A DNA stretch of 64,000 nt. Origin: Anthoceros angustus (lineage: Eukaryota > Plantae > Anthocerotophyta). Positions 22,237 to 49,490 of the stretch are shown piece by piece. The DNA lies in assembly GCA_010909165.1 (NCBI GenBank), contig MU008164.1, forward strand, positions 372,001 to 436,000. Direction: 5' to 3'. Both the position numbers and the translations under genes were made by a program. The notes beneath the pieces are model-generated. The model did not search any database, was not told the origin of the DNA, and saw only the letters and a list, made by a program, of their open reading frames with translations. Numbering within the stretch: position 1 is the stretch's first letter; each line of letters opens with the position of its first letter.

Positions 22237-22292
22237 CCCTACACGCTTCTTTGTCCATCTAGCGTGAGGACTGTATGATAGCTTCACCTCTT

Positions 22293-28079: not shown

Positions 28080-28653
28080 TAAAGGAATAGATGTGTTGGA
28101 GTCATGATTATGGTTCATTCAGTTAAGTTATTTTAAAAGGTCATGGCGTTTCATTAGGGTTACGTCTGTTCATAAAGGCGTGGCTTTTGGTTTTACTTAA
28201 ACCATTACGAACTTTAATTGTGTGTGTATTCTTTACATATATAGTGTGATACAATGTAATACAATTATTAATCTGTATATTCCATTTATCCTAAAATGGT
28301 ATCAGAGCACATGAATATGCAGGTTGCATTTTGATTAATGCACATTGAAAAATGCATTTAAAGAGAATGCATTTGAATATAGTTTTTTTTGTTTTTTGAT
28401 TTAGAAAAATGTTTTCTTGATCAAGAAACCAAAAACTTAAAGAATACAATTTGTGTTGTTTATTTATATAGAAATTGATGCGCCCGCAAATTAAGGAAGT
28501 GATCCTCGCGCATCTTTCCTGAATTGTTATTTGAACAATTTCAGAAGAAATGCGCTAGGACAACTACCTAATCTGCAGGTAGATTGTCAAAAATATTTTA
28601 TATAAAAAATACAATGTCAAAAGAAAACATTTAACAACACAAAATCTGGCCTG

Positions 28654-29340
28654 ATGAATGGCCAACCGTCTGGACGGCACAGTTGGCAGCCTCGCCCTGC
28701 TGAGCAAATTCCACAACACCAGAATCGCCGCAGGGGGCAAGGAGCACAAGCTGCAAGAAACACAGTTGCTGAGCAACTTCATCAACATACAACTGAATGG
28801 ATTGCCAGAACTCAAAATCAGCCTGTGCTCGCTCTTGAAGTAAGAGAATCCTTCAATACCTTGATTGAAGCACTCTATCCTGATCAGCGCCACTTGGTAA
28901 TTGCCCTTCCACCTCGAAACCCTGATAATCTCCCAGAGGTGCGTGTTCAGAGGGCTTTTGATGGGAATGGTCATCACGGAGGCTTTCTAACAACACATGT
29001 ATCACCACCTGCCAGTGTTGCACAATTAGTGAACAGAATTGAATCACATCAGGAACATGTGGATACACGTTTTAGTAGCATTATACAAAAGGTATCTGCT
29101 ACTAGTGTAGATTTGAGAGACTTACAAGAGCAGATAGGTCATTTGGATTTCAAACTTCTTATGTTGTTGAAGCCAGCCTTGCTTGCTAACCCTGTCCTTA
29201 GGGGTGTAGCCTGTAAGAACGCCAAGAAAACAAATAAGAATCATATGTTTGGAAGTCCAAATTCATGTCCTTCTTGCTCTGTATATGCTTTCAATAAGTG
29301 GGAGATTAGAAATCAGAGAATAATCGAGAATACAATGTGA
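28654..29340 (+). CDS. Extra 5' ORF (ORF0) of copia A: coiled coil + C/H/CxxC motif
   Basis: Intact 228-aa ORF between PBS and gag. Its C-terminus HMFGSPNSCPSCSVYAFNKWEIRN matches HERKFDTPNSCPSCSTYAFNKFEMRN at the same position in element D. Confidence 0.72.
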   Translation: MNGQPSGRHSWQPRPAEQIPQHQNRRRGQGAQAARNTVAEQLHQHTTEWIARTQNQPVLALEVRESFNTLIEALYPDQRHLVIALPPRNPDNLPEVRVQRAFDGNGHHGGFLTTHVSPPASVAQLVNRIESHQEHVDTRFSSIIQKVSATSVDLRDLQEQIGHLDFKLLMLLKPALLANPVLRGVACKNAKKTNKNHMFGSPNSCPSCSVYAFNKWEIRNQRIIENTM

Positions 29341-29498
29341 GCCGTGAGTCGACTGCATTTGTAACGCCTACCGCCAATATTCTTTGACTGTGTTGCATGA
29401 GCATCATGTGTCTGAAGTCTTGAGTCTTTCTAACCCCTGCGACCATCATAGAATCTTAGTATTCTGGGAGTAGCTAACCCAAGATACAAAAGAGGAAA

Positions 29499-31801
29499 AT
29501 GGCAACAGCAGATACCTCATCCAGTCTAGGTGGGGAAGGGTTCAAAGAGAAAGACAGGTTTGGTGGGCAAGATTACGATATATGGGTAATTAGAATGAGG
29601 AGAGCCTTGCAGAATAAGAAACTCTGGAAGGTAGTTATTGGGGATGATAAGCCCCCAGTTGTCTCCACTCTACCCACAACTGCTGAAAGCAAGTTACAGG
29701 ATGCATGGGATGCAAAAGATCAAGCAACCATGTTCCTCATCCGAAGTGGTCTTACCTCAGACATGTTAAGACAGACTTCGGGATGTACAAGTTCAGCAGA
29801 AATCTGGTCCAGACTTCAAGATCAGAGTGCAAAAGAATCGACAAGTCGATGATTAAATTATGAAATTTATGCTTTGCAAAATGAAAGATGGAGAATCAAT
29901 CGAAAAGCATCTTGGACATTTCAGAACACTTGTGTCCAGGCTGGAAAGTGCTTCAAACGAGGTTATAAAGGATGAAACACTTACACTTTATTTCCTCATA
30001 TCCTTACCAGACTCTTGGTCACATTTCGTGACCTCCTTTAACGCTTCGAGACTCCAAACTGAGAAACTTGCAAAGGCTTCCAATGTTTCCCTCCCAAAAA
30101 CCACCTTTGCAGAGTTAGTGGGAGCATTACTACAAGAGGAAGCAACAAAGTATCAGAATAATTGTTCTGGTAAACAGCAAGCCCTCTATACATCCAACAT
30201 AGGACGTGGAGGAGGAAGACCCTACAACAGGGGTGGGGGCAGTACCTCAAGAGGTGGTGGCTCACAAGGACGAGGAGCCAATCAGAGAAAACCAAAAAGG
30301 ACAAGAAACTGCAACTGGTGCAAGTTACCTGGTCACTGGGAGCGTGAGTGCCGGAAAAAGCAAGCTGGTGTTCCTCGCAAGGAGGGTTCAACCAGTGCTC
30401 AGACTCACGTGGTTGTGAAGAAGCAACCAACCCCTTCTGCCCTCACAGTCGGTACAACAGTGTTTGCAACAAGTTCATTCTTGTCTCCTGCATGCCTGTC
30501 AGCAAATACAAATGTTAAGCATACCATTGATTGGTACTTAGACACAGGGGCTACAGCCCATATTTGCTTAGACAGAGGAGCATTTCAAACGTACAAAACA
30601 GTTAAGGATCAGTACGTATACCTAGGTGATGACAGATCCCTAGTTTCTCCTGGTCTTGGCACTATAGACCTGCCAGTTCCATCAGGAAATGTGTTAGTAC
30701 TGCATGACGTCTACTACGTCCCTGAGATGACACAAAATCTCATTTCAGTCAGGAAGCTGAATGCTAATAATCACTGACACATCTTATTTACTCAAACAGA
30801 ATGTCAAGTACTAGATGCTTTTAATCATACAAAAGTACTGGCCTATGGGTCATCAGATAGAGACTTGTTTCGTCTCCATATAGATAGTAGCTTACCATTC
30901 TTAAACTTGACAAAGGGTGCAACAACTGCGTCTACACAACAGATAGAAAAGTCAAAATTGTGGCACTCACGACTAGGCCACCCAAATTCAGCAAAGTTAC
31001 AAAAACTAGCTGTAAGTGATCTTTACCAGCATGGGCATATAGGGCCTCTAGTACCACTTCCTTTGTGTGAATCCTGTGTTCTTTCAAAGAGACATCAAGC
31101 AGCCTTTAAAAACAAGGCACCACACAGAGCTTCGGATGTCTTGGAACTTGTCCATACAGATTTGTGTGGACCTCTCTCACAGGAGTCCATTGGTGGTGGA
31201 AAATACTTCCTGACATTTACAGATGACAAAACGAGGTTTGTTACTACTTACATTTTGAAGTAGAAGAGTGAATGCTTTACTCACTTTAAGGATTACCTTA
31301 AGTATGTTGAAAGATGGACTGGAAAGCAACTTAAAACTTTAAGATCAGACAACGGGGGAGAGTTTACCTCAAATGAGTTTCAGGATTACTGTTTGGCTGA
31401 GGGCATTGGTCGCCAGCTTACAGTCGTCTACACTCCACAGCAAAATGGCGTAGCTAAGCGTCTTAACCTAACGTTGCAGGAGATGACATCTTCTCTTCTA
31501 CATCATGCTCAGCTCCCCCTGCCATATTGGGCAGAAGCCATTATGACATCAACTTATCTTAAAAATAGATTGCCCACAACTTCAGTTGTTGGACTTACCC
31601 CGTATGAAGCCTTCACGGGGCGCAAGCCATCCATACTTCACCTGCGCACCTTTGGCTGTATAGCATATGCTTTTGTTCCTAAAGAGAAGAGGAAAAAGTT
31701 ATCAGACAAGGCACGTAAACTTCTGATGTTAGGCTACGCAAAGGGCATCAAGGCATATAAACTCTATGATGTTCCTAAAAATAAAGTAATATATGCCAGG
31801 A
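29499..31801 (+). pseudogene. Copia A gag-protease-integrase (premature stops; continues at 39382 and 41051)
   Basis: Gag FKEKDRF, zinc knuckle CNWCKLPGHWEREC, protease WYLDTGATAH, LWHSRLGH, integrase VHTDLCGP / LRSDNGGEF / QNGVAKR (catalytic E changed to K). In-frame stops at about 29850, 30775 and 31261. Confidence 0.92.
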
Positions 31802-32168
31802 TGTAAATTATCAAGCAGAAGCGAGAGGTGCATGAACTCTTGATAGTTGGATTAATTAATGAATGCAACACAAAATCATTGTTTTATCTTGACGCCGACT
31901 TGTATATGTAACCCTAATTCACATAACCCTAGTCCGAGTGACCATGTGTCTAGGTTTAACTGACCGATAACCCTATCGTAACAACCCCCCTTAAACTGGA
32001 CACATCATTCAGTTCCTTCACGCGAAGCTGGCGTACACGAGGAAAAGGTCACGGTCGGAAGTATCACGCTCCACAGCCGACTGCATCACGCTCCATCGAG
32101 GCCTAGCGTACACAGGAGCTTATGCCCCAAGGCCAGCTCTCGGAGGATAAGAGGGACGCAACTCAGAG

Positions 32169-32636
32169 ATGGCAACCAACCTTGCCTCCGTCGTCGCTAT
32201 AATCCAGCTTGCGCTCTTCGCTCTTACGAGCCTGCTCAATCTGGTGATCATGAAGACAAGGAGCGGGAAACGCTATCGCCGTGAAGACGCTCCAAGGAGG
32301 ACCAGATGGGCAGGAAACGCCCCACAGACCGGTGCAAGCGCAGAGAGCAACGCACCATCAAGCCTGCTCACCATCAGAGAAGAGCAGCAGGAAACCGCCG
32401 CCCAAGGCTGTAAGTGGGACAGGCACTGTTGGGGACAGTATGTGCACCTCGGGTGCTACCACGTAGAGTTGAACATCAGCCTGTCTCTGGGCAAGGTGAA
32501 GAAGGGAGAGACACGCGCTACCATCTCCAAAGACGCCCAGGGGGAAGAAGGAAAACAGAGCCTCATCAAGCAGCTCAAAGACACAATAAAGCTGCTAGAC
32601 AAGGTGAAGGACGTGATACCAAGGGAGGAGGAATAG
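32169..32636 (+). CDS. Antisense accessory ORF of copia C (155 aa)
   Basis: Intact ORF convergent with pol: hydrophobic N-terminus, MKTRSGKRY motif and conserved C-terminus HLGCYHVEL...GEEGKQSLIKQLKDTIKLLDKVKDVIPREEE. Homologues in B and E. Confidence 0.75.
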   Translation: MATNLASVVAIIQLALFALTSLLNLVIMKTRSGKRYRREDAPRRTRWAGNAPQTGASAESNAPSSLLTIREEQQETAAQGCKWDRHCWGQYVHLGCYHVELNISLSLGKVKKGETRATISKDAQGEEGKQSLIKQLKDTIKLLDKVKDVIPREEE

Positions 32637-32676
32637 GTTGAACCATCAGTCAGGTGATTATCTCTTGCAATATGCT

Positions 32677-35600
32677 TCATCCACTGATCAAGCTTTGGAT
32701 CACCGACCGGCTGATGTCCGTCATAGATAAGAGCGCTGCTAGGAGGGCTTCATCATAAAAACTGGAAGTGCAGGCTTCCACCCCACACCCCGCCTGCCTA
32801 CAAACCAGATAAGGCTCATCACTGCTGGAAACGGGCAGAAAATCCTCGAGCCCAAGTCCCTCCATGTGGGCATAGTGCTTTTGCTTAGATAGGCCTTTAG
32901 TCAGGATGTCTGCGGTGTTGTCCTCAGTATTGATATAACCGACTGTAATGACCCCACGTTCAACCACATCACGTATGTAGTGATGCTGGATTTCAATATG
33001 TTTAGTACGGGCGTGAAATTTCGGGTTTGCCACTAACTCAAGCGCAGACTGGTTGTCACAGAGAAGCTGCGTAGGCTGAAGTTGATGATCAAGATCAGCA
33101 AGGAAACTCCTCTCCCATTCAGCTTCTTTAGAAGCCTCTGTCAGAGACTTATATTCAGCTTCGGTGGAGCTGAGGGCAATACTCGCTTGCTTCTTACAAC
33201 TCCAGTTCACAGCTGCTGAGGCTAAAAGGAAACAGTACGTAGAAAGACTACGGCGAGAATCTTGATCTGACGCCCAGTCGGCATCGGTGTAACCTGTCAG
33301 GGTAAGCTGTGCTTTGCCACTTTGTCTGTACACCAAGCCTGTTGTATGAGTCCCCTTAAGGTAGCGGAAGATACGTTTTACAGCTGTCCAATGTGTCCTT
33401 CCAGGATTTTCCAGAAACTGGGATACTGTGCTCACAGAATATTGGATGTCGGGTCTCGTCCAGTTAGCAACAAAAATAAGGCTGCCCACCGCGTGCCTGT
33501 AAGGTACATCGCGCATATCTTCCATCTCTTCTGCAGTCTCAGGACACTGCTCTCGGGTAAGCTTGGTCCCGACTGCATAGGGGGTTGTAGCAGGACGAGC
33601 TTGGTCTAGGTTGAACTTCTTCAGTATTTCATTTACGTACTTGTACTGATGGATAATCATGAGGCCTTCGGATCTAATGCGAAGCAACTGTATGCCAAGA
33701 CAGAACTTCAACTCTCCAATATCCTTCATGTCAAACTTGCTGCTAAGTTTATTTTTGACATCTGACAGCAGCTGTTGATCATTGGTTGCGAGAATTACGT
33801 CGTCAACATACAAGGCTAAAATCACAATAGAAGACCCCACAGTGAGTTTGTAAACGTTAGTATCTGCCGTGCTCTGGACGAAAGCTATACTGAGCAAGTA
33901 TACGTGCATCGTAAGGTACCATACTCTCCCACTTTGCTTAAGTCCATAAATGCATTTCAACAACTTCAGGACTTTATTAAGGTGTTTTGGGTCTTCATAT
34001 CCCTCTGGCTGCAGCATGTAAAGTTCTTCGTCCAGGGCACCATACAAAAACGCAGTACAAACGTCCATCTGTTGAAGGTCCAAATTATGTTCTGTGGCAT
34101 AGGCAAGCAAGATCCTTATGGATTGAGTGCGTACAACTGGAGAAAAAGTGTCTTGGTAATCCAGACCCTCGACCTGGGTGAACCCGCGGGCAACTAAGCG
34201 AGCTTTGAATCGCCACCTCTCCCTTAGCATTGAGCTTGAGTTTGAATACCCATTTACAGGATATTGCCTTGCGACCCGGAGGGAGGTCTGCCAGTACCCA
34301 TGTCTTGTTCTTGACCAGTGACTGGTACTCGTCCTCAACGGCCTCTTTCCATTGTGCTGACTCAGGACCATCAAAAGCTTGAGATAAAGAGGTAGGCTCA
34401 TCTGGAAGAGATGGGCTAATAACAAGATGAGTCCGGAAATCTGTAGATTGATATGGGGGCTCTGCCCATTCGGATGGTGGGGGACGATGGCGAGAAGACC
34501 GCCTGAGCTCATCTGCAGGGGGTGCTTCTAGTGCGTGCTCTTGTTCGACTGCTTGGCCATCATGAACCTGGGCAGGTGCCTCCACAGCAAGGGGTCGATG
34601 ATCATAGTGTACAAGAGGGGGACGCTCATCAAGGATAGCATCCTGGTCAGGTTGTAATCCCTGTACAGCATTAGGAGCCTCGACAGGCTGCCAATCATCA
34701 TCACCTCTGGCAGGAGGTGGCAACTGTGGGGGAACTGCAACATGTTCCATGTCGTCCAGTGGGTAGTCGGCAGTTTCATCGGCATCCAAAACATCCAAAT
34801 GTCCATGAATGGCTCCTGGGTCGGGGGAGGATGGATCAGTGGAGGATGGATGCAGTGTCTCCGTAAAGGTTACACTACGAAAAGTACCATGGAGTCTACC
34901 TCTGGGTTGTACAACTTGTAGGCTTTAACAAGCTCACTGTAACCAACAAAGATGAGGCCTTGAGCACGAGCATCCAACTTCTTTCTCTTCTCTGGAGGAA
35001 TATGGGCATATGCTTTGGATCCAAAAATCCTCAAATGGAGCAAGCTCGGCCTCTTGTGCCAAAAGACCTCATATGGAGTCTTCTGTGGGACCGAACTTGT
35101 AAGGACCCTATTCAGGATATAGGTGTGAACTACCGCCTCGCCAAGACTTGTGGTAAGCCCATATCAGCATGCTCCTCGTCATTCCTGTGAGGGTTTGGTT
35201 TTCCTCTCTCAAAATGCCGCTTTGTTATGGGCGCAGGCACAACAATCGTCAAGGATCCCATGCTCTTGAAGCAGCTCATCAAGAGATGAGTTGACGAACT
35301 CCGACCCATTGTCTGTCCTTAAAATCTTGAGAAGCATTGTCTTCAGACCATCAAAAGCTTGAGATAAAGAGGTAGGCTCATCTGGAAGGGATGGGCTAAT
35401 AACAAGATGAGTCCGGAAATCTGTAGATTGATATGGGGGCTCTGCCCATTCGGATGGTGGGGGACGATGGCGAGAGGACCGCCTGAGCTCATCTGCGGTG
35501 CTTGTGCGTGCTCATGTTATTTGCTTGGCCATCATGAACACAGGCGGGTGCATCCGAGGCGGTCGATGATCATAGTGTACAAGAGGGGACGCTCATCAAG

Positions 35601-38062
35601 GATAGCATCCGTGGGTTGTAATCCCTGTCACATTAGGAGCCTCGACAGTCGCTAATCATCTTCACCTGCGGAGGTAACATGTAGGCGCAACATGTTCCAT
35701 GTCATCCAGTGGGTAGTCGGCAGTTTCATCGGCATCCAAAACATCCGAATGTCCATGAATGGCTCCTGGGTCGGGGGAGGATGGATCAGTGGAGGATGGA
35801 TCAGTGGGTGCTGTTGGCTCCAGAAAGGTTACACTACGAGCAAGTACCATGGAGTCTGTCTCAGGGTTATATAACTTGTAGGCTTTAACAAGCTCACTGT
35901 AACCAACAAAGATAAGGCCTTGAGCACGAGCGTCCAACTTCTTTCTCTTCTCTGGAGGAATATGGGCATATGCTTTGGATCCAAAAATCCTCAAATGGAG
36001 CAAGGTTGGCCTCTTGTGCCAAAAGACCTCATATGGAGTCTTCTGTGGGACCGAACTTGTAAGGACCCTATTCAGGATATAGGTTGCAGTAACTACTGCC
36101 TCGGCCCAGTACCCTTGTGGTAAGCCTGCCCATATCAGCATGCTCCTCGTCATTCCCAGGAGGGTTTGGTTTTTCCTCTCTGAAATGCCGTTTTGTTGCG
36201 GCGTGTAGGGCACAGTCAACTGTCGAAGGATCCCATGCTCTTGAAGCAGCTCATCAAGAGATGAGTTGACGAACTCCGACCCATTGTCTGTCCTTAAAAT
36301 CTTGAGAAGCATGCCTGATTGTCTTTGTGCAGTTAAGAGCCATTCCTTGAAGTAACTAAAGGTGTCACTTTTCATATGCATGGGGAAGGTCCAGGTGTAA
36401 CGACTGTAATCATCAGTTAGAGTAAAGAAATATCTGGAACCACCTAAAGATGGCTCATGGATCTTCCCTGATATGTCAGCGTGCACTAACTCAAGGACTT
36501 GTGTGGCTCTATGTGCAGAGGCATTAGGAAAGGGGGATTCCTTTTGCTTGGCCAGGATGCAAGATTCGCAGACTGGTAAGTCTTTAAAACATTTAGAGTG
36601 GCTCCCTGTGACACTCCATAACTGACATGTCAATTAGCTTAGATCTGTTGACATGTCCTAATCTGGCATGCCACAATACGGCCTCTTGCTTTGCACTAAC
36701 TGAATTTCTGGCAGTGGAGTGTGCAGCATGATTGGAAACAATGGCGGAGCTGCAAGTGATGTTCAATCTGTATAAATCATGGTCTAAGATACCTTTGAAA
36801 ACACATGTATCTGGGTATGCCTTTCTATAGAAAGAACAGTGATTAGAATCAACACGCATACATAAGGTACGCAGACGCATCAACTGGCTCATGGACATGA
36901 GATTTTTGGCCATGCATGGAACAAACAAACATCATCTAATCTGAGGTCTGTACTGTCCTGCAGCCTGAAGATACAGGTACCCTTGCCTTCAACGGGCAGA
37001 CTTGTTGTACTTTGCTCATCACCAAGCAGGACCTTGTCATTGACATGACCAAGGTCAAGGGTAGTAAATAACTCCCTGTCTTTGCAGATGTGAGTCGTAG
37101 CGCCGGAGTCCAGATACCAACTACAGTCATCATGTAGGGAACTAGAAAGGCAAACGGTAAGTATCTTGACCGGTGCCTTAGTTTCTCCAGGATTTTTCTC
37201 CTCGACAAAGCAAAGATTAGTTTCCTACTGCTGCTCACCGCCTTCTTTATGGCAGCCTTGCCCAATGGCTGTGGGTGCCACACCGCTTGCAAGAACCTGG
37301 ACGTTTGGTGGAGGAGCTAGCGAACGGGCCTCTGTCCAACAGAACGGGCTGTAGCCGAGTGCTCTCGAATTTGGCCTTGCCTCTGAAAGGTCGTAAATTC
37401 ACAGCTAATACTCTCTCGGTTCTGTTCTTAGGAACAGCACCGGAAAGGGTACGAGCCTGTTCCTCCTGATAGAGTGGCCGATGTCCTCAATAAGAAGTCA
37501 GCAGATCCCGAGGCTTTACAGTCCGCTTTTGAGCAAAGGATAAATTGATATGAAGGTGGGAGACTAATGAGTAGCTGGGATACAGCTTCGACTTCTGGCA
37601 TCTTGTTACCAGTCAACGAAGTGATCTGGGCCCTAAGATGTCGGAACTTGCTGGTATGAGCAGCTTCTCTCCTTCCTTCATTTTCAAAGCATAAAACGCC
37701 ATTCTTGCGGCTGATAACGACAGCATGTTGGTGGACCGATAAGTGGTTTCTAACTGGTGCCAGATAGCCTCCGCTGTGTCCAAGAACTCAATATCAGGCA
37801 CAAGATCTGCATCTAGGCCATTGATGAGGAGGGCCATAGCGACACCATTGTGGTGCATCCACTTGGCATGATCATCAGGGTGTGTGGAAGGATCAGGCTG
37901 CTTGAAAGTGCCATCGAGGACTGGCCAAACTCCACGAGCAGACATGATGGCCTTAATCCTGACTCGCCAAATGAGGTAACCATTTCCCTTAAACCGATCT
38001 TTTTCCTTCAATTCTGAAGTGAAAGATAGTGCTAGGGTCGGATGTGAATTTGACGAAGCCAT
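32677..38062 (-). CDS. Copia C gag-pol polyprotein (frameshifts probably partly assembly errors)
   Basis: Gag LKEKDRF at 38062; LWHARLGH; IN VHADISG / LRTDNGSEF / QNGISERKN; RT FKARLVARGFTQ, QMDVCTAFLYG, LYVDDVIL; RH GYTDADWA, SSTEAEY, ADILTKGL. Confidence 0.9.
34365..36312. repeat. ~980-bp tandem duplication inside copia C (probable assembly overlap)
   Basis: 34365-35337 is repeated at ~35345-36312. The first copy degrades by indels at its right end and the second at its left end. Confidence 0.75.
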
Positions 38063-38543
38063 GTTTGGACTTCCAGGTCAGGTATAACGAAGAAGCTATA
38101 CGGAGTTATGGTTACTACGGGACAGATAAGTATCTATGCCTAGTATGCCCAATTCCATGCTTGGAACGTAAGGACTGACCATTAGATGCAGGAGGGGTGG
38201 TTGGGAAGGTTCAGCCGGAGGAGGGGATACCAAGGAGACATGTCCTTCTCGTGCTGAACTTCTCAACTTCCTTTCGCACACTAGTGAACAGTTGCACTTG
38301 TGGGCATAACCCTAAAAATAGATGTCGGTTCAAAAACTAAAACTGACAATTAGGGCTTGCAACTAACCGTCATGTCCCTATCGCGTGAATGTATCGCTCA
38401 AAGTTGACTTAACTGGCGTATGCAAGAAGTGCAAGGTGAAGGGGTGCGTGTTCCATTAGGTCGCTCGCATCCGGCCGATCCGGCGCCATGTGAGTGCCAT
38501 CGATCGCAGCGGAAGTGCTCAAGGAGCATGGGCCGTTGTATAA

Positions 38544-39149
38544 TCAAAGCTGAATGGGTAAACCGTTCTCCAGACCCTGCAATCTAAGGTCCATCTTTTT
38601 CAAGATTTCAGTCAAATAATCAATATCTTGTTTGATGTCCAGTTTGCAGGCTGAGATAGCTTGTTCAGCGTTGAGAATTAGGCTGTCGACTCTGTTCCTG
38701 GTAGACTCCTGATTTGCAAGCGTTAAAGTGAACACCTTCTCCACACAATCTGAGGTAACCAGTGATCTGCCACTAGTTTGGTCCCTGAATTGTGTGGGAT
38801 TACTGATGGTGTTATCTCTTTGTTGTGGCACAGACTGTCTTGAGCAAGAGGAGGATGCCTCTGTGCTAGGTCTGAAGAATAGATTTGGATTCTGTCCTCT
38901 GTTACGGCAACGCTCCCTATACAGGCGATCCACTCCTCTATTTCTGTGGAGGAGATGAGCCGGTCCAGGAGGAGTGCTTCGCTGTGCCACAAAACGTCTT
39001 AGCCAGAGTGCAGGGTATTCGTACTCGTAGAGGTCCAGCAACGTGTCAATGGGCAACGTTGCTGTTTGCTTTCGTAGGCGACCTTCCTGATTGTAATTTC
39101 CTGGAGGTCCACCACGCCGGCTTCCTCTAGAACCACCCTGCCTCGGCAT
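38544..39149 (-). CDS. Extra 5' ORF (ORF0) of copia C (201 aa)
   Basis: Intact ORF starting 33 nt after the PBS, upstream of gag. Arg/Gly-rich N-terminus and heptad-like C-terminus (VDSLILNAEQAISACKLDIKQDIDYLTEILKKMDLRLQGLE). Confidence 0.65.
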   Translation of the reverse strand: MPRQGGSRGSRRGGPPGNYNQEGRLRKQTATLPIDTLLDLYEYEYPALWLRRFVAQRSTPPGPAHLLHRNRGVDRLYRERCRNRGQNPNLFFRPSTEASSSCSRQSVPQQRDNTISNPTQFRDQTSGRSLVTSDCVEKVFTLTLANQESTRNRVDSLILNAEQAISACKLDIKQDIDYLTEILKKMDLRLQGLENGLPIQL

Positions 39150-42100
39150 TCTTAGGAGATCTTAGCAGGAAAACAGAGCATGGCTCTGATACCATGTAAA
39201 TTATCGAGCAGAAGCGAGAGGTGCATGAACTCTTGATAGTTGGATTAATTAATGAATGCAACACAAAATCATTGTTTTATACTGACCACGCGACTGTTCA
39301 TGTATGTAACCCTAATTCACATAACCCTAGTCCGAGTGACCATGTGTCTAGGTTTAACTGACCGATAACCCTATCGTAACAGTGTTACCTTTGATGAAGG
39401 CAGCACTTGGGCATCAGTGGGAGCTTCCCAGGATCCCCCTCTTGAGGATGATGATGACACAACAAAGGCCTGTATTCAATTTGATCAAACCGATCATGGG
39501 ACTCAAGTTGTTCTACGAGGATGTTGCCCCTATGCGTGGGGATGCTCCGGCTGATGATCTTGTTGATGATTCAGCAGGTTTTGACCTTGTTGGTCTTGAA
39601 GAGCGTAGCTCGCACAACATAAGATGTACCCGACAAGCTTCATCGCCTTACGTGAGCCCGATCCAAGTTTTGTACCAGATCGGTGAGCATGGGTGCCTTA
39701 GAAGCTCACAATCTGAGTCTTCTCGTTGCTGTGTCGAGGCTTGGGGAACTTCACATGCACACTGCGGGTGGAGCCGTCATCATAGTATGCAAAATCCAAG
39801 TTCAGGACCCTGACCAGACAGGTGAACTCAACTTTTGGCGACGAAGGAAAGGGAGGAGCGCTCATATCTCGGCGAGTTCTGAAGCCTTCGACCTTGCGCC
39901 GCTCCAGAACTTCTTTTGTTGTCCCTTTCGGCCTTCCAACTCTTCGCCTGCTGGTGGACGCTTTGTTCTCAACACTCTTCTCAACCTTGGTAGTTGTCCT
40001 AGGCGCAAACCTCCCTAGGGCATCGCGCTGTTGGCGGCGGGTCTTGGGAGCGGCATCAGAATCAGAACTTGAAGAAGCCATGATTGACAGGAGGCGCGCG
40101 ACTCTACGCCTCAACAGCTCAGTAAATACTTGGGACGTGAAGAGGCTGAATGTTATGTAGGCGGCGCACCTCATCACAACAGTTTGGGCACTGGAACAGG
40201 TACTTGAAGATACCATCTTGATTCACTGTGACTTGAAAAGATGGAGCGTAACCAAGGATGTAAATCGCTATTATGGCGCTTTGAAGATTAAAGACAACCC
40301 ACCGAACTTACCATACCACGCACCCCCACCACCATGAAGACTGAATATGCAAATGAATCATGACCAACAAGTGGGAGTAAAGGAATAGATGTGTTGGAAT
40401 CATGATTAGGGTTCATTCGGTTAAGTTATTTTAAAAGGTCATGGCGTTTCATTAGGGTTACGTATGTTCATAAAGGCGTGGCTTTTGGTTTTACTTAAAC
40501 CATTATGAACTTTAATTGTGTGTGTATTCTTTACATATATAGTGTGATACAATGTAATACAATTATTAATCTGTATATTCCATTTATCCTAAAATCGAGG
40601 ACACGATCAAGCTGCTCGACAAGGTGAAAAATGTAGAGCCGAGGAGGAGTGAGCTAAACCAGAACCAGTGATTAAATTTCTCGATAGGCTTCATCCACTG
40701 CCGTTGCCAGTGCGCTGGTCGTAACTAATCGCTCGTTGTCTTCAGAAGGAGTTTTGATTGGTGAGTTATCATCAATAAACTGGAAGCATACGCCCACGCC
40801 CGGCTTCCTCTAGAACCACCACCGCCCATTCTTAGAGATCTTGGCGGGAAAAGCAGGCATGGCTCGATACCATGTAAATTATCGAGCGAGCGAGGTTATG
40901 AACTCTTGATAGTTGGATTAATTAATGAATGCAACACAAAATCATTGTTTTATATACGCGACTGCATCATGTATGTAACCCTAATTCACATAACCTAGTC
41001 CGAGTGACCATGTGTCTAGGTTTAAGCCGACCGATAACCCTATCGTAACAGTGTTACCTTTGATGAAGGCAGCACTTGGGCATCAGTGGGAGCTTCCCAG
41101 GATCCCCCTCTTGAGGATGATGATGACACAACAGTGCCTCCAGATTCCCAATTTGATCAAACTGATCATGGGACTCAAGTTGTTCCTGCTGAGGATGTTG
41201 CCCCTATGCGTGGGGATGCTCCGGCTGATGATCTTGTTGATGATTCAGCAGGTTTTGACCTTGTTGGTCTTGAAGACGCAGCTGCAGAGCCTGCACAACC
41301 AGATGTACCTGACAAGCGCTTCATCATCAGTTCTGTGAGCCCGATCCAAGTTTTGTACCAGATCGGTGAGCATGGGTGCCTTAGAAGCTCACAATCTGAG
41401 TCTTCTCGTTGCTGTGTCGAGGCTTGGGGAACTTCACATGCACCGAGCTGGCTATCATAGTATGCAAAATCCAAGTTCAGACCCCGACTGCATGTGTGAA
41501 CTCAACTTTGGCGGCGAAAGGGAGGAGCGCTCATATCTCGGCGAAGTTCAAGCCTTCGACCTTCGCCCCGAGAACTTCTTTGTTGTCCCTTCGGCCTTCC
41601 AACTCTTCGCCTACTGGTGGACGCTTTGTTCTCAACACTCTTCTCAACCTTGGTAGTTGTCCTAGGCGCAAACCTCCTAGGCATCGCGCTGTTGGCGGGT
41701 CTTGGGAGCGACATCGATCGAACTTGAAGAAGCCATGATTGACAGGAGGCGCGCGACTCTACGCCTCAACAGCTACTTGGGACGTGAAGAGGCTGAATGT
41801 TATGTAGGCGGCGCACCTCATCACAGCAGTTTGGGCACTGGAACAGGTACTTGAAGATACCATCTTGATTCACTGTGACTTGAAAAGATGGAGCGTAACC
41901 AAGGACAGAAATCGTTGGCTATGGCGCTTGAAGATTAAAGACAACCCAGCTGAACTTACAGTCCACGGGCACCCTGCAGCCGACCATGAAGACTGAACAT
42001 GCAAATGAATCATGACCAACAAGTGGGAGTAAAGGAATAGATGTGTTGGAATCATGATTAGGGTTCATTCGGTTAAGTTATTTTAAAAGGTCATGGCGTT

Positions 42101-42440
42101 TCATTAGGGTTACGTATGTTCATAAAGGCGTGGCTTTTGGTTTTACTTAAACCATTATGAACTTTAATTGTGTGTGTATTCTTTACATATATAGTGTGAT
42201 ACAATGTAATACAATTATTAATCTGTATATTCCATTTATCCTAAAATCGAGGACACGATCAAGCTGCTCGACAAGGTGAAAAATGTAGAGCCAGAGGAGG
42301 AGTGAGCTAAACCAGCAACCAGGTGATTAAATTTCTCGATAGGCTTCATCCACCTGCTGTTGCCTTGTGCGCTTGGCTGTGTAACTAACTGCTCACTGTT
42401 GTCTTCCACAGGAAGGAGTTTTGATTGCAGAGTTATCATC
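39115..42440. repeat. ~1.65-kb tandem duplication spanning C 5' LTR, A 3' end and B flank (probable assembly overlap)
   Basis: ~39115-40790 is repeated at ~40795-42440, including both insertion junctions. The copies differ mainly by small indels. Confidence 0.75.
39698..40216 (-). CDS. Antisense accessory ORF of copia A with AT-hook-like motif (duplicate copy ~41380-41864)
   Basis: 172-aa ORF read away from the 3' LTR: QQRDALGRF, RRRVGRPKGTTKE, FPKP..EKTQIVS. The same motifs occur in order in element D at 43980-44340. Confidence 0.65.
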   Translation of the reverse strand: MVSSSTCSSAQTVVMRCAAYITFSLFTSQVFTELLRRRVARLLSIMASSSSDSDAAPKTRRQQRDALGRFAPRTTTKVEKSVENKASTSRRRVGRPKGTTKEVLERRKVEGFRTRRDMSAPPFPSSPKVEFTCLVRVLNLDFAYYDDGSTRSVHVKFPKPRHSNEKTQIVSF

Positions 42441-43899
42441 AATAAAGCGAAGCACGCTTCCGCCCGCCCCTCCCCAACCCGGATAAGTCTCCATCACCGC
42501 TAGAAATAGGCAGAGAAGTCTTCCAGCCCAAGTCCCTCCATGTGTGCATAGTGCTTTTGCTTAGATAGGCCTTTTGTCAAGATGTCCTCAGTGTTGTCAT
42601 CTGTACTTACATGGCCAACTTTGACAACACCACGCTCAACCACATCAGGGATGTAGTGATGCTGGATTTCTATGTGCTTAGTACGAGCGTGAAATTTCGG
42701 ATTGGCCACTAACTCAAGTGCTGATTGGTTGTCGCCAAACAGCGGTGTAGGTTGGAGTTGTGCTTGATCCAGGTCACTAAGGAAACTCCTCGCCCACTCA
42801 GCTTCCTTAGAAGCTTCGGTCAAAGACTTGTATTCAGCTTCGGTGGAGCTGAGGGCAATAGACGCTTGCTTCTTACAACTCCAGGTGACAGCTGCAGATG
42901 CGAGCAAAAAACAATATGTAGACAAACTGCGGCAGGAATCTTGATCGGAAGCCCAGTCGGCATCTGTGAAACCTGTTAGGGTAAGTTGTGATGTTCCACT
43001 TTGTTTATACATCAATCCTGTTGTGTGTGTGCCCTTGAGATAACGGAATATTCGTTTGACTACTATCCAGTGAGGCCTACCAGGATTTTCAAGGAACTGA
43101 GACAGCGTGCTGACTGAAAATTGTATATCCGGCCTTGTCCAGTTGGAAACAAAAATAAGGCTCCCAACTGCATGCCTGTAAGGTATGTTTTTCATATCCT
43201 CTGTCTCCTCTGTTGTTGTTGGGCACTGAAGTCGAGTTAGCTTGGTTCCTACAGCATAAGGTGTAGTGGCTCGGCGCGCCTGGTCCAGGTTAAACTTCTT
43301 GAGGATCTCATTGACATATTTGTACTTGTGAAGGATCATTAACCCTTCAGACCTTAAACGAAGCAGCTGTATACCAAGGCAAAACTTCAACTCCCCAATA
43401 TCTTGCATATCAAACCTGAAGATTTTATGGTCTAATGTAGATCAATTAAACATTATAGAATAATTACATTGTTGGATCAAGAAAGAAGTAAGTTGCTTAT
43501 GCATGAAAAGACAACTAAACTAGATTTAATGAAACGTTGTATCTATTCACTTAGAGACGTAACCCTAATGAAACGACACCATATCTAGTAAACCCTAGCT
43601 TATCATATCTTGGTAATATATGGATAACTTAAACCCTAAACCCTAACTATGATATCAACATTGTATATCATTACTCCCACTTGTTGTAAATAGTTAGGTA
43701 CAAATTCTCACCGTGAACCGCTCGTGAGACTCTGGAGTTGAGCTCCTTTGCCAATCTTCCGGTTTTGCCATCTTGTGGTGGTAGAGCTTACGCCCCATCT
43801 TCATGTCTTTACGGACACTATGGAGTGTACCAAAGTGTGAAGCCACCGAGTGTGTTGGCTCCCTTTATAATTCTCCTTACGCCTCGCCTCATATGCATC

Positions 43900-44680
43900 G
43901 ATCGCCTTGAGAGAAGGTTTGCGCCCAGCCATATCGAGATGGCGCCACCGGTCTTCGTAGTTTGAGGGTACTTTGCCCAAGAAACCGCAGCAGCCCAGAA
44001 ATGCTCTAGGCCACTAGAGCCCGATCAAGAGGAGACTCAACTTCCGCAGCCTAAAGGGGCGTGAAGAGAACGGGCGCCCAAAGGAACCACCAAGGAGTTT
44101 CGCAACGCAGAGGTCAGTAAACAAGAAACCATGGGCGGCCCTTCTTCGTGTCACTCCTTCTAGGCCAAGAGCGGCAACAAGAGTAAAAGCAAATCCCGCA
44201 CATGTTACCCCGATTTTGGCTTTTCTCGAGAACGGCTAACCCTTGTGAGGACCCAAGCTTTCCCAAGCCTGCACTGCTCAAGGAAACCCAAATTGTCTCC
44301 TACGGCGACCATGAAGCACCCTCGCACCCCTATGTGGTATAGGGTTCATGGGCGACTAAACCGTGATGTATCAAAGTTGAAGATTGCCGGGCGATCCTCA
44401 CCATGTTGTTAGCACGGTAAGTCCCAAATTCCATCCTCAAGATTTTCTGCTTTTGTGTGTGTGAGAGCTAACCTAGCTCCCACTGCTTTGCAGGATCTAA
44501 CATACGATCAAGAAGAGTCTCGACCTCCTCAAGACAATCTCGTGCAAGGCAAGAAGGCGTGGAGAAGACCCACCGCCTTGACATTCCCGATCCTTCCAAG
44601 AGGAGGAAGATGAGAGTCAAAGCCTCAGCCGGTGAGTTTGAGTCCGTGGGGACTCATACTCTCGTGTCTCGTGATGAGAC
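43900..44680 (+). CDS. Antisense accessory gene of copia D, apparently spliced (intron 44417-44493)
   Basis: Frameshifted homologue of the A antisense ORF (QQPRNALG, GRPKGTTKE, FPKP, KETQIVS, HPRTPMWYR). It is followed by G|GTAAGT...GCTAAC...CTGCTTTGCAG|G. Confidence 0.55.
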
Positions 44681-47600
44681 TCTTTTAATGACTACATGAT
44701 GATGAACACTCTTCCTTCGATGTAGTTAGAGTTCGCAGCATGGATTTTACTTTGTCGACTGCCAAGGAACTCCGAGGAGTCTCCAAGGCCAAGACTTTTA
44801 ACATGTTTCTTTCGTGAAGCTCTTTTCCTAGAGCCTTAGTCAATATTCGCTGGATTGTCTTATGCCACATACTCGAGGTTGATTTTACCCGCCTTGATTA
44901 GGTCTCCGATAAAATGATACTCAACCTCGATATGCTTTGTCCTTGCATGAAACCGGGTTACGAGCAAGTGACATGGAGCCCCGGTCATCGGTCCTTATGA
45001 GCGTATGTAGGTAATGGTATACCCATTTCGCTAAGGAGTAGTTGCACCAAATGATCTCTTTGCAAGAAGGACTCTATATTCAGCCTCGACGTCGAGAGCA
45101 ACTGGGCTGTTTTTGCTCATCCAAAGAATCGGTCCACCGCTATGCTCACAACGTAACTGCAGCAGATCTCCTGTTGTCCACGCTTTCATAGTCGAATCGG
45201 TGAAGACCTGTTCAAGTTGTTGTCTGTGTGTGGCAATATTTTATCCTCGATGTGGTGTCCCTTCAAGTATCTAAAGACTCTTTTAATGCTTGTCCAAGGT
45301 TTTGGCCCGGGTTCTCCGTGAACCGTGAGAGAGCGCTAGCAAAGGCAACTTCCATACGAGTAGTGTTTGCATATATGAGTTTCCAACATGCCTATAAGGT
45401 GGCTAACATCCTTTCCTTCTACACTGCTTGTGGGGACATTTCAACTTAGCTTGATTCCACTTGGTAGGGGTGTAGCGGCTTTGCATCCTTCAAACCTAGC
45501 ATCCGCACTTTCAGTATGTATCTTGGTTGTGAGTGTGATAACCTGCTTCTCAACATGTATACCAAGACAACTCAAGATCACCAAGGACATCTTAAACTTA
45601 GTTGCAAGTGTCGAATCTTTTGATAAAACTCGTGATCACTGACAAGATCAGTCATCTATCGCTAGGCTGCATTTATGTCACCTTTCTTGTAGATGTGTGC
45701 TACCATCCGCTTTTTTGGTGAAACCTAATACTAAAAGCTCAGATCAAGTTCTGCTCCAAGCCATTGCGCATCGCTTCAACCCGTACAAGTCTTGATAAGT
45801 TTACATACATAATCCTCCTTTCCTTTGACTACATAGCCGTGAGGTCACCGATATATTCATGTCAAGCTTGCCATTCAAGAATGCTGTTTGACATCAAACA
45901 TTTGCGCTCATAGTCCTTATAGATATTGCACATAATGCTCGTATGGTTGGCGCTTCACAACCTGGAGCGAATGTCTCCAAATAGTCCACGCCGGAACTTG
46001 TGAAAATCCACGAGCCACTAGTCTTGCCTTGTACCTATCAAGGTACCATCAGCCTTGACTTTCAATTTGAAGACCCACTTACAAGACACCATTTTTCCGC
46101 CAGAGGTAATTTTGACAACTCCCATGTGCCGCTCTCAATCAATGAGTCATATTCGATTTTATAGCTTTCTCCCACTCCTTGTGATCGTGTCCGCTCAAAG
46201 CCTCGCATAAGACCGTGGTTCTACAGGTCGAGGTTAGTAGCGTACATGCTTTCACATGTGAAGAGGAAATAATGGCAATAATAATCGAGAGTCGACGCTC
46301 GAGTAGGGTAACGTCGAGCAAGCTCGCTGTGTTCTTGTTCGTTGAGGGTCTAGATCTTGTTCAAGTTGTTCAAACATAATCTCTTCCTCGTCATTCTCGA
46401 TCGCTTCATCTTCACCGTTGCATCGCAAGTGCTTGATCCGGTTGAGGAATGTGATCCTGTGACATCCGCGGGCATGTCAAGTTGAATTTCGTTCGTGTTC
46501 TTCTTCAAACACGCCGATTTTCCCTCCCGCAGAACATTTTCATCAACAGAGCTCGAGTACCATGATCCGCGATCATAATGAGAAAGCTCAAGACTATCCT
46601 CGCCATCGTTCGAGCATGAACATGTGCTCCCAGAAGCCCAAGTCTTTGTTTCATCAAGGTAACACTGAGCATAAATGACCTTGTTAGAAGGAACATCATA
46701 TAGTTTATATGCTTTTATCCCTCCGTATCCCAACATGAGCAAGGGGCCTTAGCTGAAAGCTTGGTTCGTCATCTGTATGAAGGCATATGCAAGGCAAAAA
46801 CGCCTCAAGTCTGGATGGATGGTCACTGTAAAAGCTTCATAAGGAGTTTTGCCTTCATGCTGTGGTGGGTAACCCGTTCAAGAAAGGTTGAGGTCATCAA
46901 AGCCTCGCCCGAAGGTAAGGGCGCTTGAGCATCATGCAATGAGGAGACCATCTCCTGTGAGATTCAAACGCCCGCCACTCCATTCTCATTGGGAGTGTAT
47001 ACCACGTGAGTTGACGCCCAATGCCTTCATCTTTACAGAATCTGGAATTCATTAGAGGTGAATTCCCGCCATTGTCCGATCTTAGTGTCTTGAGTCGCTT
47101 TCTGCCCAACGCTCAAAGAACTTGATGTATTCCTTGAAATAGGAGAAACATTCATTGTTCTTCAGGATGTAGGTGGTGACAACCGCTTTTGTCATCTCAG
47201 AACGTTAAGAAATAACGCCCACCACCAATGGACGCTTGAGATAAGGGTCCACACAAATCGAGATGTACAAGCTCAAGTACGCACGGTGAGGTGCTTTGTT
47301 CTTGAAAGCTTGGTGTTTCTTCGACAAAACACAAGCCTCACATAAGGGTATAGGAGTCAAGGGGCCAATAGGTCCATCTTGATGTGTCACCATAGCCCAA
47401 TTTTGTAGCTTTGCCATGTGAGGATGACCTAGGCGCATGCCACAACCGAGCCTTTGCCTTTTGTTGTGCAGATGCAAGGGAGACGCCTTTGTGTCGTGGA
47501 CTGCTACTCCACGTGCAAATGGAGACGAACAGATCATGGTCCAAGACCCATGCGCAAGTACCTTTCTAGGGTCAAATGCATCTATGATTCTGCAACTGCT

Positions 47601-48929
47601 CTTGTGAATACATGACTTATTGCTCGATTCAATCTTCTAACAGAGATCGTGTTTCTAGTCATCTGCACATGGTAGACATCTTCTAACTTGAGTGTGTTTC
47701 CAGAGGAACTATTAACTCTCAACTATGCCAATCAGACTAGTTTTAAATTCATCTCTATCAAAATATGTGCAGAGCACCGATTCTAAGAACCATTCTTTTT
47801 GGTTTGATTCACTTTGGAGGAAAGACAAGTGGAAGCAAAGAATGGACTAGCAAACTCCCTAGTCCCAAGTAAGAGCGATGGGGTATTAACCTTTTTACCA
47901 CAACATTTGATTCGATGGTTCCTCCTTGCGAGGAACTCCTGCTTTGGCACTCTTTTCCCAATGGCGATTGCACCAGCGGTTCACGGCTTCTTTGTTTCTT
48001 CCGGTGAGGATCGCGAGCTACCTCCCCGAAGAGTTTCCACCACCTCCTTTGGAGAAGGGCTTCTTCCTCCTCGTCCTTGTTGTGAGGTGTACAGGCCTTG
48101 TTTCGCTTATGGTTGGTCCTGCGGCTTCTTCTTGCATGGAACTCACGAGCTGTGAGAAGCTCATTTCAGGCATCTCTATGCCTTGCTTTTTAGCTAACAA
48201 CGTAGCTTGTGTTTGAGCAGCTGTATGAGAAGTCACGAAATGTGACCATGACTCTGGAAGCGAAAGAAGGAGCCTCATCACCATTTCATCTCCAATGGCA
48301 ACTTTGGAGGCACCCTGAAGCCGTGAGGCTAGGGTCCTGAAGGTACTCACGTGTTTCTCCACTGAGTCACCGTCCTTCATCCTTAGGTTCGAAATTCCTT
48401 AGAGTCATTGCGCTTACCATGTTCTCGCTGTAGAGTTCCTTTAGGCGATTCATGATTTCGGCCAAGTATTCACCTCATGCCTCAACATCTCGGTTGCCAC
48501 GCTGCGTATGAGGTATTTGGCTCCGTCCTTAGCTAACCATTCTTCCTCTCCAAGATCCTCGTCGGTTTCACTACTTTTCCAAGAGCATGTTTGAGGAGGC
48601 CTCTCATTTGAGAACGCCCCATTCTTATAAGCCAGATGTCAAAGTCATTTCCGTTGAACCTGTCCTTCTCCTTGAAGGACTCACTGCTTCCAAAATTATG
48701 TGTAGAGGATGTGTCACCCATTTTGGGTTGCTGAACTCCTAAGAGTTTGTCCTCTACAGTATTGAAGAAGCTTTCTAATGTGTCTTCTTCCTGGTCACTA
48801 GCATGAACACTATCATGGGCACTGCTGTAGCCACTATTCTCACCATCCATACATACTACTTACAATGCGTGTTGGTTTTGTAGTTGCTCCTGTGCAGGCA
48901 CCTATGGTTTGTTCCCAAACGCGCTATGC

Positions 48930-49490
48930 GCCTATCTTAGAGTTTCTCATCTCAAACTTATTGAATGCGTAAGTGGAGCATGAAGGGCAAGAGTTAGGTG
49001 TATCAAACTTCCTTTCATGCTTAGTTTTACTTACGTGCATTCGCCTCCGAATGGGTTGGCCAACAACTCTGGTTTCGAACATTACAAGCTTGTAATCTAA
49101 GTGTGTTATGCTCTTTCAAATCCTGCAGATCAATGCTAAGCGACATGACCAATCGACGACATCTGCTTTCAACATTCCTATTGTTAGCCTCAAGACGAAC
49201 AATTGTGTTTACACCTCTGATTGTACAACGCCTTTGTTGTGAGGAAGCCGCGTTGGTGTATGTTCTCAAGTGGCGATGTTGCACCGTACCGTCAATTGTG
49301 GAATGTCAAGTCAAGCTGCTGGGAACAGCAATTCGAGAAGTGTGTTGAAGGCTCGCAATGTGTCTCCTTGTGCTTGATTGGGCAAGTTGCTCCACTAGGA
49401 TGCGCCCATGTAATTGATGTGCTGTGGTTTTGTCTCTCGGCATTTCGCGATCCCGCCTTGGATTTTGATTGTTCCTCCTAGGATTCACCG
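48930..49490 (-). CDS. Extra 5' ORF (ORF0) of copia D (indel-broken)
   Basis: Between PBS and gag: ...RLEANNRNVESR...SLSIDLQDLKE...HERKFDTPNSCPSCSTYAFNKFEMRN, homologous to A ORF0. Confidence 0.6.

What the first reader, a model, noticed from the sequence alone, without database searches (positions are those of the whole stretch)
39698..40216. Antisense protein family 2 (elements A and D) with AT-hook-like and RDxxGRF motifs
A: KTRRQQRDALGRF...RRRVGRPKGTTKE...FPKPRHSNEKTQIVS, then HPCSPIWYK in the next frame. D (43980-44340, +) has KPQQPRNALG, GRPKGTTKE, FPKP, KETQIVS and HPRTPMWYR in the same order, although the A and D LTRs are largely dissimilar. A GRP core with basic flanks is AT-hook-like (established). 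Inference: a DNA-binding accessory factor filling the same slot as family 1 with a different chromatin-binding device.
Basis: partly seen in the sequence, partly recalled or inferred. Interest (0 to 1): 0.7.

Follow-up and report, generated by a model that had tools for sequence, protein, structure and literature searches.

The report
Backward accessory gene in copia retrotransposons
Two related copia-type jumping genes in what is likely a non-seed plant or alga carry, backwards behind their polymerase region, a stretch conserved like a protein-coding gene with no relative found in the databases searched; it is likely spliced and likely makes a basic nuclear protein that binds nucleic acid, but the proposed AT-hook is not shown to be shared.

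Summary
Real, but more modest than proposed. The finding lies in a Ty1/copia element (A, 28080-40594, +). A sister element (D, 43417-50133, -; 67% DNA identity in integrase) has a homologous stretch on the opposite strand between RNase H and the polypurine tract. The conservation looks protein-coding. In blocks chosen from DNA alone, mismatches fall on codon position 3 (24/40 versus 9/38 and 8/39, p=0.0012). A frameshift-aware alignment scores 67 antisense against 40 sense (shuffles 36±5, maximum 53 of 150). D also has a consensus 77-nt intron on that strand.

Corrections: (1) A lacks RT and RNase H; a ~2 kb deletion cuts off the gene's end. (2) D reads RERAPKGTTKE in frame, so GRP needs an assumed frameshift; A has VGRP, not RGRP. 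(3) GRF occurs only in A. (4) A and D are sisters, so sharing is descent.

No homologue was found among 1.84 billion proteins, Pfam or PDB. It works like the antisense extra ORFs of Retand, Grande and Boty, which are rare in surveyed plant copia lineages. A nucleic-acid-binding nuclear helper is likely but untested.

The parts
39698..40222 (-). Open frame of the antisense gene in element A (174 codons stop to stop; first ATG 40216; Met at 40081 aligns in position with D's Met at 43939). From 40081: 127 aa, pI 10.8, 22% K+R; basic low-complexity first 70 residues, more hydrophobic second half
39911..39946 (-). RRRVGRPKGTTKE basic motif; PKGTTKE is identical in D, GRP is not readable in frame in D
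39651..39698 (-). RHPCSPIWYK block in a second frame of A (23 nt from TQIVS to HP; 31 nt in D, a different phase, so not a shared programmed frameshift)
39630..39655 (.). Approximate junction of the internal deletion in A: integrase tail joined to the truncated antisense gene; about 2 kb of D (RT, RNase H, exon 2, intron) has no counterpart in A. Position carried over from the duplicate copy (41320-41335)
   Evidence: homology to D's integrase tail ends at 41322 / D 46426; no RT/RH tblastn hit in A at E<=1
43939..44416 (+). Putative exon 1 of the antisense gene in element D, broken by indels (4 of 9 anchor intervals out of frame)
44417..44493 (+). Putative 77-nt intron with consensus donor, branch point and acceptor, on the antisense strand
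   Evidence: 1 match in the 64 kb window, both strands; 0.09 expected from 300 shuffles; pattern written after seeing the site
44494..44699 (+). Putative exon 2 in D (frame uncertain: 39 codons in the frame directly after the acceptor, 67 in another frame that holds a KRRK stretch); ends near the end of pol, tail to tail
28080..28296 (+). 5' LTR of element A (217 bp, 70% AT, ends TA...AA), followed by a tRNA-Met-type PBS; 5-bp target duplication at 28075-28079 and 40595-40599
28606..31801 (+). Element A: extra sense ORF upstream of gag (28606-29340), then gag, protease and integrase in copia order, with two in-frame stops (30775, 31261)
31802..39382 (-). Copia element of another lineage (family-1 antisense gene) nested inside A's integrase
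39383..39640 (+). Element A resumes: integrase C-terminal tail and acidic linker
40366..40594 (+). Polypurine tract (40366-40377, same 12-mer as in D) and 3' LTR of A (40378-40594, 97.7% identical to the 5' LTR); likely holds the antisense promoter (inferred)
40794..42446 (.). Tandem duplicate of 39112-40779 with a second, more broken copy of A's antisense gene (41 substitutions, 74 indels); not an independent copy
43417..50133 (-). Element D: complete copia layout (LTRs 43417-43673 and 49875-50133, 98.5% identical; gag, integrase, RT-RNase H), interior full of small deletions

Best explanation
Two sister copia retrotransposons carry, on the strand opposite to gag-pol between RNase H and the polypurine tract, a stretch conserved with a protein-coding pattern, which is likely a third gene transcribed backwards from the 3' LTR, likely spliced, and likely encoding a roughly 200-230-residue basic nuclear protein that would bind nucleic acid and help its own element. 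Shown: position, strand, homology of A and D, excess of third-position and synonymous change, a consensus intron in D, basic composition, truncation in A. Inferred: the promoter in the 3' LTR (Met lies 270-300 nt from it in both elements), splicing, nuclear localisation, and the mechanism. The mechanism I favour is that the disordered basic arm with PKGTTKE grips DNA, most plausibly the element's own 70% AT LTRs, while the aromatic blocks (DF, FPKP, TQIVS, HPxxPxWY) form a small folded module that contacts a host or element protein, so that the product acts in trans to keep the family transcribed or unsilenced. My odds: real coding gene about 0.85; nucleic-acid-binding nuclear helper about 0.5; true AT-hook binding the LTR about 0.2. 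Copy A is a deletion derivative and cannot encode the whole protein seen in D.
For: Frame-blind blocks: mismatches 9/38, 8/39, 24/40 at codon positions 1, 2, 3 of A's open frame, p=0.0012; integrase control 25/182, 19/183, 97/178. 12 synonymous codon changes among 35 codons against a null mean of 4.2; 6 of 20,000 simulations reach it; this frame is the only one of six without a stop. Antisense score 67, sense 40, shuffle maximum 53 of 150. A serine codon-family switch in TQIVS. Intron consensus on the same strand, 1 in 64 kb against 0.09 expected. D's frame breaks match local noise: 27 non-triplet gaps in 680 nt of its integrase while its LTRs are 98.5% identical. pI 10.8, 20 K/R in the first 70 residues. 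The motif [RK].{0,2}GRP[RK] occurs only at this site and its duplicate in six frames of 64 kb. Precedent: Grande gene23 is nuclear and has its own antisense promoter (PMC7264820, parts 1-2 of 3 read).
Against: Only two independent elements; conserved blocks total about 35-50 codons. The sense frame that shares third positions scores nearly as well in the frame-blind blocks (18/35 identical, 10 synonymous, 1 stop, against 21/35, 12, 0) and is open for 124 codons in A, so strand assignment leans. The duplicate copy of A scores only 45 against D, inside the shuffle range. Positions 1-2 are about twice as divergent as in integrase. No intact copy: A is truncated and has a frame break shared by its duplicate; D is broken. 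No homologue, domain or confident fold: 0 hits among 1,835,955,588 proteins at E<=0.001, 0 in Pfam, 0 in PDB sequences; single-sequence AlphaFold mean pLDDT 56, pTM 0.18. GRP and GRF are not shown in D. Function rests on composition and analogy alone.
Confidence: 0.5

Rival explanations
1. The gene is real, but the protein binds RNA rather than DNA: a Rev-like or chaperone-like factor for export, splicing or packaging of the element's genomic RNA.
For: Arg/Lys-rich disordered arm; GRP motifs with basic flanks can bind RNA, extended AT-hooks about tenfold better than DNA (PMC4615771, abstract and passages; PMC11354804, passages).
Against: Nothing specific; no RNA-binding domain hit. The one localised precedent (Grande gene23) is described only as nuclear.
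Confidence: 0.2
2. The constraint belongs to a sense-strand frame (an env-like or other sense extra ORF) and the antisense protein is its mirror image.
For: A has a 124-codon sense frame at 39786-40160 with a hydrophobic stretch; it shares third positions and shows 10 synonymous changes among 35 codons. Sense 3' extra ORFs are the norm in SIRE copia (74%; PMC6317226 supplement).
Against: Sense-strand frameshift-aware score 40, inside the shuffle range; stops in the shared blocks (1, 3); the intron signals are on the antisense strand; the hydrophobic stretch is not kept in D.
Confidence: 0.07
3. The stretch is a once-coding relic or captured host-gene fragment, now decaying, or is kept as a cis element or non-coding antisense RNA that regulates the element through double-stranded RNA.
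For: No intact copy here; A tolerated loss of the 3' part; DNA-level homology is detectable with lenient scoring; non-coding antisense RNAs of retrotransposons are described (PMC7264820).
Against: Third positions are as diverged as in integrase (60% against 54%) while positions 1-2 are held, so selection on protein lasted through the A-D divergence; no host homologue was found; A has also lost RT, so its loss says little.
Confidence: 0.15
4. Chance similarity between two basic low-complexity frames in noisy long-read sequence.
For: Single-frame tblastn E=0.12; strict DNA scoring is reached by 3 of 200 shuffles; heavy indel noise.
Against: Same slot, same order, similar spacing in sister elements; 0 of 150 shuffles and 0 of 232 tiles reach the score; codon-position bias in blocks chosen without reference to frame.
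Confidence: 0.03

Closest known systems
Antisense additional ORFs between pol and the 3' LTR (aORF-3R / eORF-3'R): maize Grande gene23, rice RIRE2, Silene Retand, PvRetro13, Botrytis Boty brtn (PMC7264820, parts 1-2 of 3 read; PMC11963269, passages)
   Same: Position between pol and the polypurine tract, opposite strand, conserved across related families, no clear homologue outside the elements, basic and probably nuclear; function unknown.
   Different: Here the carrier is Ty1/copia, whereas the reviewed plant cases that I could place are Ty3/gypsy. In REXdb eORF-3'R is listed for 86% of Retand and 60% of Ogre but 1% of SIRE and none of 13 other copia rows; two rows, Bianca and Ikeros, are ambiguous in the text rendering (cut-off 250 codons). 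No TRP28, PMD or SMC domain. Short (about 200-230 codons) and probably intron-split.
AT-hook motif of HMGA proteins (consensus TPKRPRGRPKK; PMC11354804 and PMC4615771, passages)
   Same: GRP core with Arg before and Lys after in A; GRPKGT resembles HMGA1's RGRPKGSK.
   Different: Val replaces the first Arg of the central RGR; a single motif; no Pfam hit; the core is not readable in frame in D.
Family-1 antisense protein of other copia elements in this window (32151-32636, 54285-54806)
   Same: Same slot, same strand relation, ends tail to tail with pol.
   Different: No sequence similarity (best E=1.1); carried by a different copia lineage (integrase 49% identical); no intron was looked for in it.

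Membership tests
Ty1/copia LTR retrotransposon | Order gag-PR-IN-RT-RH between LTRs | tested here: met
   D: integrase at 46.7-47.3 kb precedes RT-RH at 44.8-46.1 kb on the minus strand. A: Retrotran_gag_2, Pol_BBD, gag_pre-integrs, rve, SH3; RT/RH deleted
Ty1/copia LTR retrotransposon | Paired LTRs, PBS, PPT, 5-bp target duplication | tested here: met
   LTR pairs 97.7% (A) and 98.5% (D); PBS, PPT and an exact 5-bp duplication for A; D's duplication has one mismatch
Named REXdb copia lineage (Osser, Bryco, Lyco, Gymco, Ale and others) | RT/INT/RH phylogeny against reference domains | not tested
   The REXdb sequence file was too large to read; the gag-PR search returned nothing at E<=1e-10
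aORF-3R (antisense extra ORF between pol and 3' LTR) | Located between pol and PPT on the opposite strand | tested here: met
   D 43939-44699 lies between the RNase H end and the PPT at 43674-43685
aORF-3R (antisense extra ORF between pol and 3' LTR) | Conserved as protein across related elements | tested here: met
   two independent elements only
aORF-3R (antisense extra ORF between pol and 3' LTR) | Present and open in most copies of the family | not testable with these tools
   No genome held; both copies here are broken
aORF-3R (antisense extra ORF between pol and 3' LTR) | Antisense transcript from its own promoter | not testable with these tools
   No sequencing run could be laid; intron consensus is indirect
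Retand/Ogre-type antisense proteins | Transposase_28 (PF04195), plant mobile domain (PF10536) or SMC-like domain | tested here: not met
   No such Pfam hit for A's ORF or 5 further fragments of A and D
Canonical AT-hook | GRP core flanked by basic residues | tested here: inconclusive
   Met in A (RRRVGRPK); in D only with an assumed frameshift
Canonical AT-hook | Central RGR / RGRP and match to the family profile | tested here: not met
   A has VGRP; no Pfam hit at E<=10 for the 25-aa motif or the 127-aa protein; my PROSITE-like pattern (recalled) gave 0 matches
Canonical AT-hook | [quoted passage not shown] | not testable with these tools
   needs EMSA or footprinting
env-like sense ORF of SIRE copia | Sense orientation with conserved transmembrane segment | tested here: not met
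   Constraint favours the antisense strand; the hydrophobic sense stretch of A is not kept in D

The most novel reading that the evidence does not exclude
Copia lineages of a little-sampled non-seed streptophyte have each recruited a different antisense gene into one exchangeable slot behind pol. This lineage's gene is a spliced, previously undescribed nucleic-acid-binding protein that recognises the element's own AT-rich LTRs and shields them from host silencing or steers integration, a retrotransposon counterpart of sequence-specific anti-silencing factors of DNA transposons.
Probability: 0.15. Interest if true: 0.8.

Novelty: new variant of a known kind. Interest (0 to 1): 0.42.

Why it matters
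The function of antisense extra genes of LTR retrotransposons is an open question (PMC7264820). They are common in some gypsy lineages but almost absent from surveyed plant copia. A short, probably spliced gene would slip under the 250-codon cut-off of that survey, so copia may hold more of them than is recorded. Two unrelated proteins in the same slot in neighbouring copia lineages of one genome would allow a direct comparison of what the slot is for. As it stands the case is two damaged copies and no function.

Tried and rejected
Homologue searches with A's 127-aa protein found nothing: word-indexed protein database (9 candidates, 0 at E<=1, lengths 69-223 only), full HMMER scan (0 of 1,835,955,588), metagenome contigs (0 of 347 pattern matches), viral contigs (0 of 21), PDB sequences, Pfam, earlier findings by place and sequence. 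The ESM Atlas gave no answer. No whole genome is held. No sequencing run was listed and no RNA holder was listed; this is no evidence on expression. A metagenome scan with A's integrase gave 8 loci at 35-40% identity; 0 of 8 hold a relative of the antisense region. A gag-PR search gave 0 of 5,690 candidates at E<=1e-10. AlphaFold on the single sequence was low-confidence (pLDDT 56; a possible two-strand hairpin at residues 96-111), so no fold search was run. Rejected: a shared programmed frameshift before HP (phases differ in A and D); the duplicate at 40794-42446 as an independent copy (indel-dominated differences); kinship with family 1. The counts (19 synonymous, 18 non-synonymous, 33/51 identical) come from blocks picked by amino-acid likeness, include the ambiguous GR block and are biased; replace them. 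Literature searches for an AT-hook in a retrotransposon extra ORF gave 0 papers and 2 unrelated listings; copia plus antisense in hornworts or Zygnematophyceae gave 3 listings, none on topic by title; two searches listed reviews. Subscription papers (Steinbauerova 2011, Gomez-Orte 2013, Zhao 2011) were not seen, only cited second-hand.

Full report
Setting. The window is noisy long-read sequence of a transposon nest. A host mitochondrial-carrier exon (13354-13683) is 43-55% identical to its 9 best database hits, the named ones from Marchantia, Riccia, Klebsormidium, Sphagnum, Physcomitrium and a JGI 'Mesen1' model. The host is therefore likely a non-seed streptophyte without a close sequenced relative (inference). 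No genome is held.

Anatomy. It has 217-bp LTRs that are 97.7% identical, an exact 5-bp target duplication, a tRNA-Met-type PBS, and gag, protease and integrase domains. A second copia (31802-39382, - strand) is nested in its integrase; A resumes at 39383. A has no RT or RNase H (no tblastn hit at E<=1). Its integrase tail stays homologous to D up to a point about 2 kb before D's antisense gene and is joined there directly to the antisense gene. Element D (43417-50133, - strand) has the full layout, with LTRs 98.5% identical. A and D are sisters: 67% DNA identity over 738 nt of integrase, the same polypurine tract, and a shared Cys motif upstream of gag, although their LTRs share only 24 nt. 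The stretch 39112-40779 is repeated at 40794-42446 with 41 substitutions and 74 indels; I treat it as non-independent.

Observation. All peptides quoted for A are present. The open frame runs 39698-40222 on the minus strand, antisense to A's gag-pol, and the HPCSPIWYK block follows in another frame. D has the same blocks in the same order and at similar spacing on its antisense strand, with 4 of 9 intervals out of frame. D reads RERAPKGTTKE in frame; GRP appears only in a neighbouring frame. GRF follows R-x-A-L-G only in A.

Is it coding? A frameshift-aware codon alignment scores 67 on the antisense strands, against 35.9±4.6 for dinucleotide shuffles (0 of 150 reach it) and a best of 59 among 232 tiles of the window; the sense strands score 40. 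The duplicate copy scores only 45. To avoid picking blocks by amino-acid likeness I took gap-free, high-identity windows from the MAFFT DNA alignment and scored mismatches against A's own frame: 9/38, 8/39 and 24/40 at positions 1, 2, 3 (p=0.0012). The same rule on integrase gives 25/182, 19/183 and 97/178, so third positions are equally saturated and positions 1-2 are held about half as tightly. In these blocks 12 of 35 codons differ synonymously against 4.2 expected (6 of 20,000 simulations), and the antisense frame is the only one of six without a stop. The weak point is the sense frame that shares third positions: 18/35 identical, 10 synonymous, 1 stop. Strand assignment therefore also rests on the strand asymmetry and on the intron. 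D's frame breaks are at background level: its integrase has 27 non-triplet gaps in 680 nt relative to A although its LTRs are nearly identical. This points to read error, though decay of a recently mobilised defective copy is not excluded.

Intron. Downstream of the WY block D has a 77-nt segment (44417-44493) with consensus donor, branch point and acceptor on the antisense strand. It is the only match in 64 kb on both strands, with 0.09 expected from 300 shuffles; the pattern was written after seeing the site. Reading continues for 39-67 codons after it and ends near the end of pol. The full gene would be about 200-230 codons (inference). A's deletion removes all of this, so A's ORF is a truncated remnant.

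Protein. A's 127 residues from the shared Met have pI 10.8; the first 70 hold 20 K/R and few hydrophobic residues, the rest is more hydrophobic. AlphaFold on the single sequence is low-confidence. No homologue or domain was found. The AT-hook literature defines a GRP core with basic flanks and stresses a central RGR (PMC11354804, PMC4615771; passages). A fits the loose definition, and the pattern [RK].{0,2}GRP[RK] occurs nowhere else in the window's six frames except the duplicate. A lacks the RGR, and D is ambiguous. What is clearly conserved is PKGTTKE, FPKP, TQIVS and HPxxPxWY. The protein is unrelated to family 1 (best E=1.1), whose carrier has a 49% identical integrase.

How it likely works. 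An outward-facing promoter in the 3' LTR likely drives an antisense, spliced message; the Met lies about 270-300 nt from the LTR in both elements. The product is likely nuclear, binds nucleic acid through its basic arm, and acts in trans for the family, most plausibly at the 70% AT LTRs. Only position, strand, coding-type conservation and composition are shown; everything from transcription onward is inferred. Rivals are an RNA-binding role, a decaying or non-coding relic, and a sense-frame mirror.

Comparison. The layout matches the aORF-3R class (Grande gene23, RIRE2, Retand, PvRetro13, Boty), whose function is unknown; gene23 is nuclear and has its own antisense promoter (PMC7264820, parts 1-2 of 3 read; PMC11963269, passages). 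In the REXdb survey (PMC6317226, passages and supplements 2 and 3 of 5) antisense 3' ORFs of at least 250 codons are listed for 86% of Retand and 60% of Ogre, but among 16 copia rows (5,376 elements, my sum) only for 1% of SIRE, with two rows ambiguous; its element table and sequence file were too large to read and may bear on this. PMC11728184 (passages) and PMC8365987 (passages) add no copia case. Two earlier notes of this scan report antisense genes in fungal copia elements (unchecked), which lowers the novelty of the layout. My searches listed no paper on this protein or on an AT-hook in such an ORF; subscription papers were not covered.

Verdict. A real antisense accessory gene of a copia lineage, with a protein that has no known relative and is probably spliced: a new variant of a known kind. 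The AT-hook and RDxxGRF reading is a lead, not a result. Interest 0.42.

Noticed in passing
window 28606-29340 (+); D near 48950-49030 (-): Element A has a 244-codon sense ORF upstream of gag; its Cys motif (PNSCPSCSxYAFNK) is conserved in D (57% over 35 aa). No Pfam family above noise. This lineage thus seems to carry two extra genes.
   Followed up: partly
window 38544-39161 (-): The nested family-1 element also has a 205-codon ORF upstream of gag with no Pfam match above noise.
   Followed up: no
window 28080-28296, 40378-40594, 43417-43673, 49875-50133: Non-canonical LTR ends: with the target duplications as guide, A's LTRs run TA...AA and D's TA...CA rather than TG...CA.
   Followed up: partly
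window 32151-32636 (+), 54285-54806 (+), 27708-28079 (+): Family-1 antisense protein in three elements: N-terminal helix-like segment, a TRSG-containing basic stretch in two of them, and a conserved C-terminal block ending tail to tail with pol; about 36% identical between copies.
   Followed up: partly
LTRs at 28155, 39308-39367, 40407-40453, 43561-43639: All three LTR types carry telomere-box-like AACCCTA motifs, oriented towards the antisense strand; the only block shared by A and D LTRs contains one.
   Followed up: partly
window 27528-43416, continuing 50134-50370: A family-1 copia element hosts both A (in its 3' region) and D (in its RT), and A in turn hosts another family-1 element: three levels of nesting.
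   Followed up: partly
window 39112-40779 / 40794-42446: 1.68-kb tandem duplication spanning parts of three elements, with indel-dominated differences; read or assembly artefact, or a true duplication seen through noise.
   Followed up: partly
window 34366-36312: About 1-kb tandem duplication (89% identical) inside the nested element's pol.
   Followed up: no
window 13270-14400 (+): Host gene for a mitochondrial carrier, SLC25A38-like, with short introns.
   Followed up: partly
window 11711-13130, 22179-23538, 24766-25154, 26729-27056: Several tandem arrays with periods of 10 to 66 nt.
   Followed up: no
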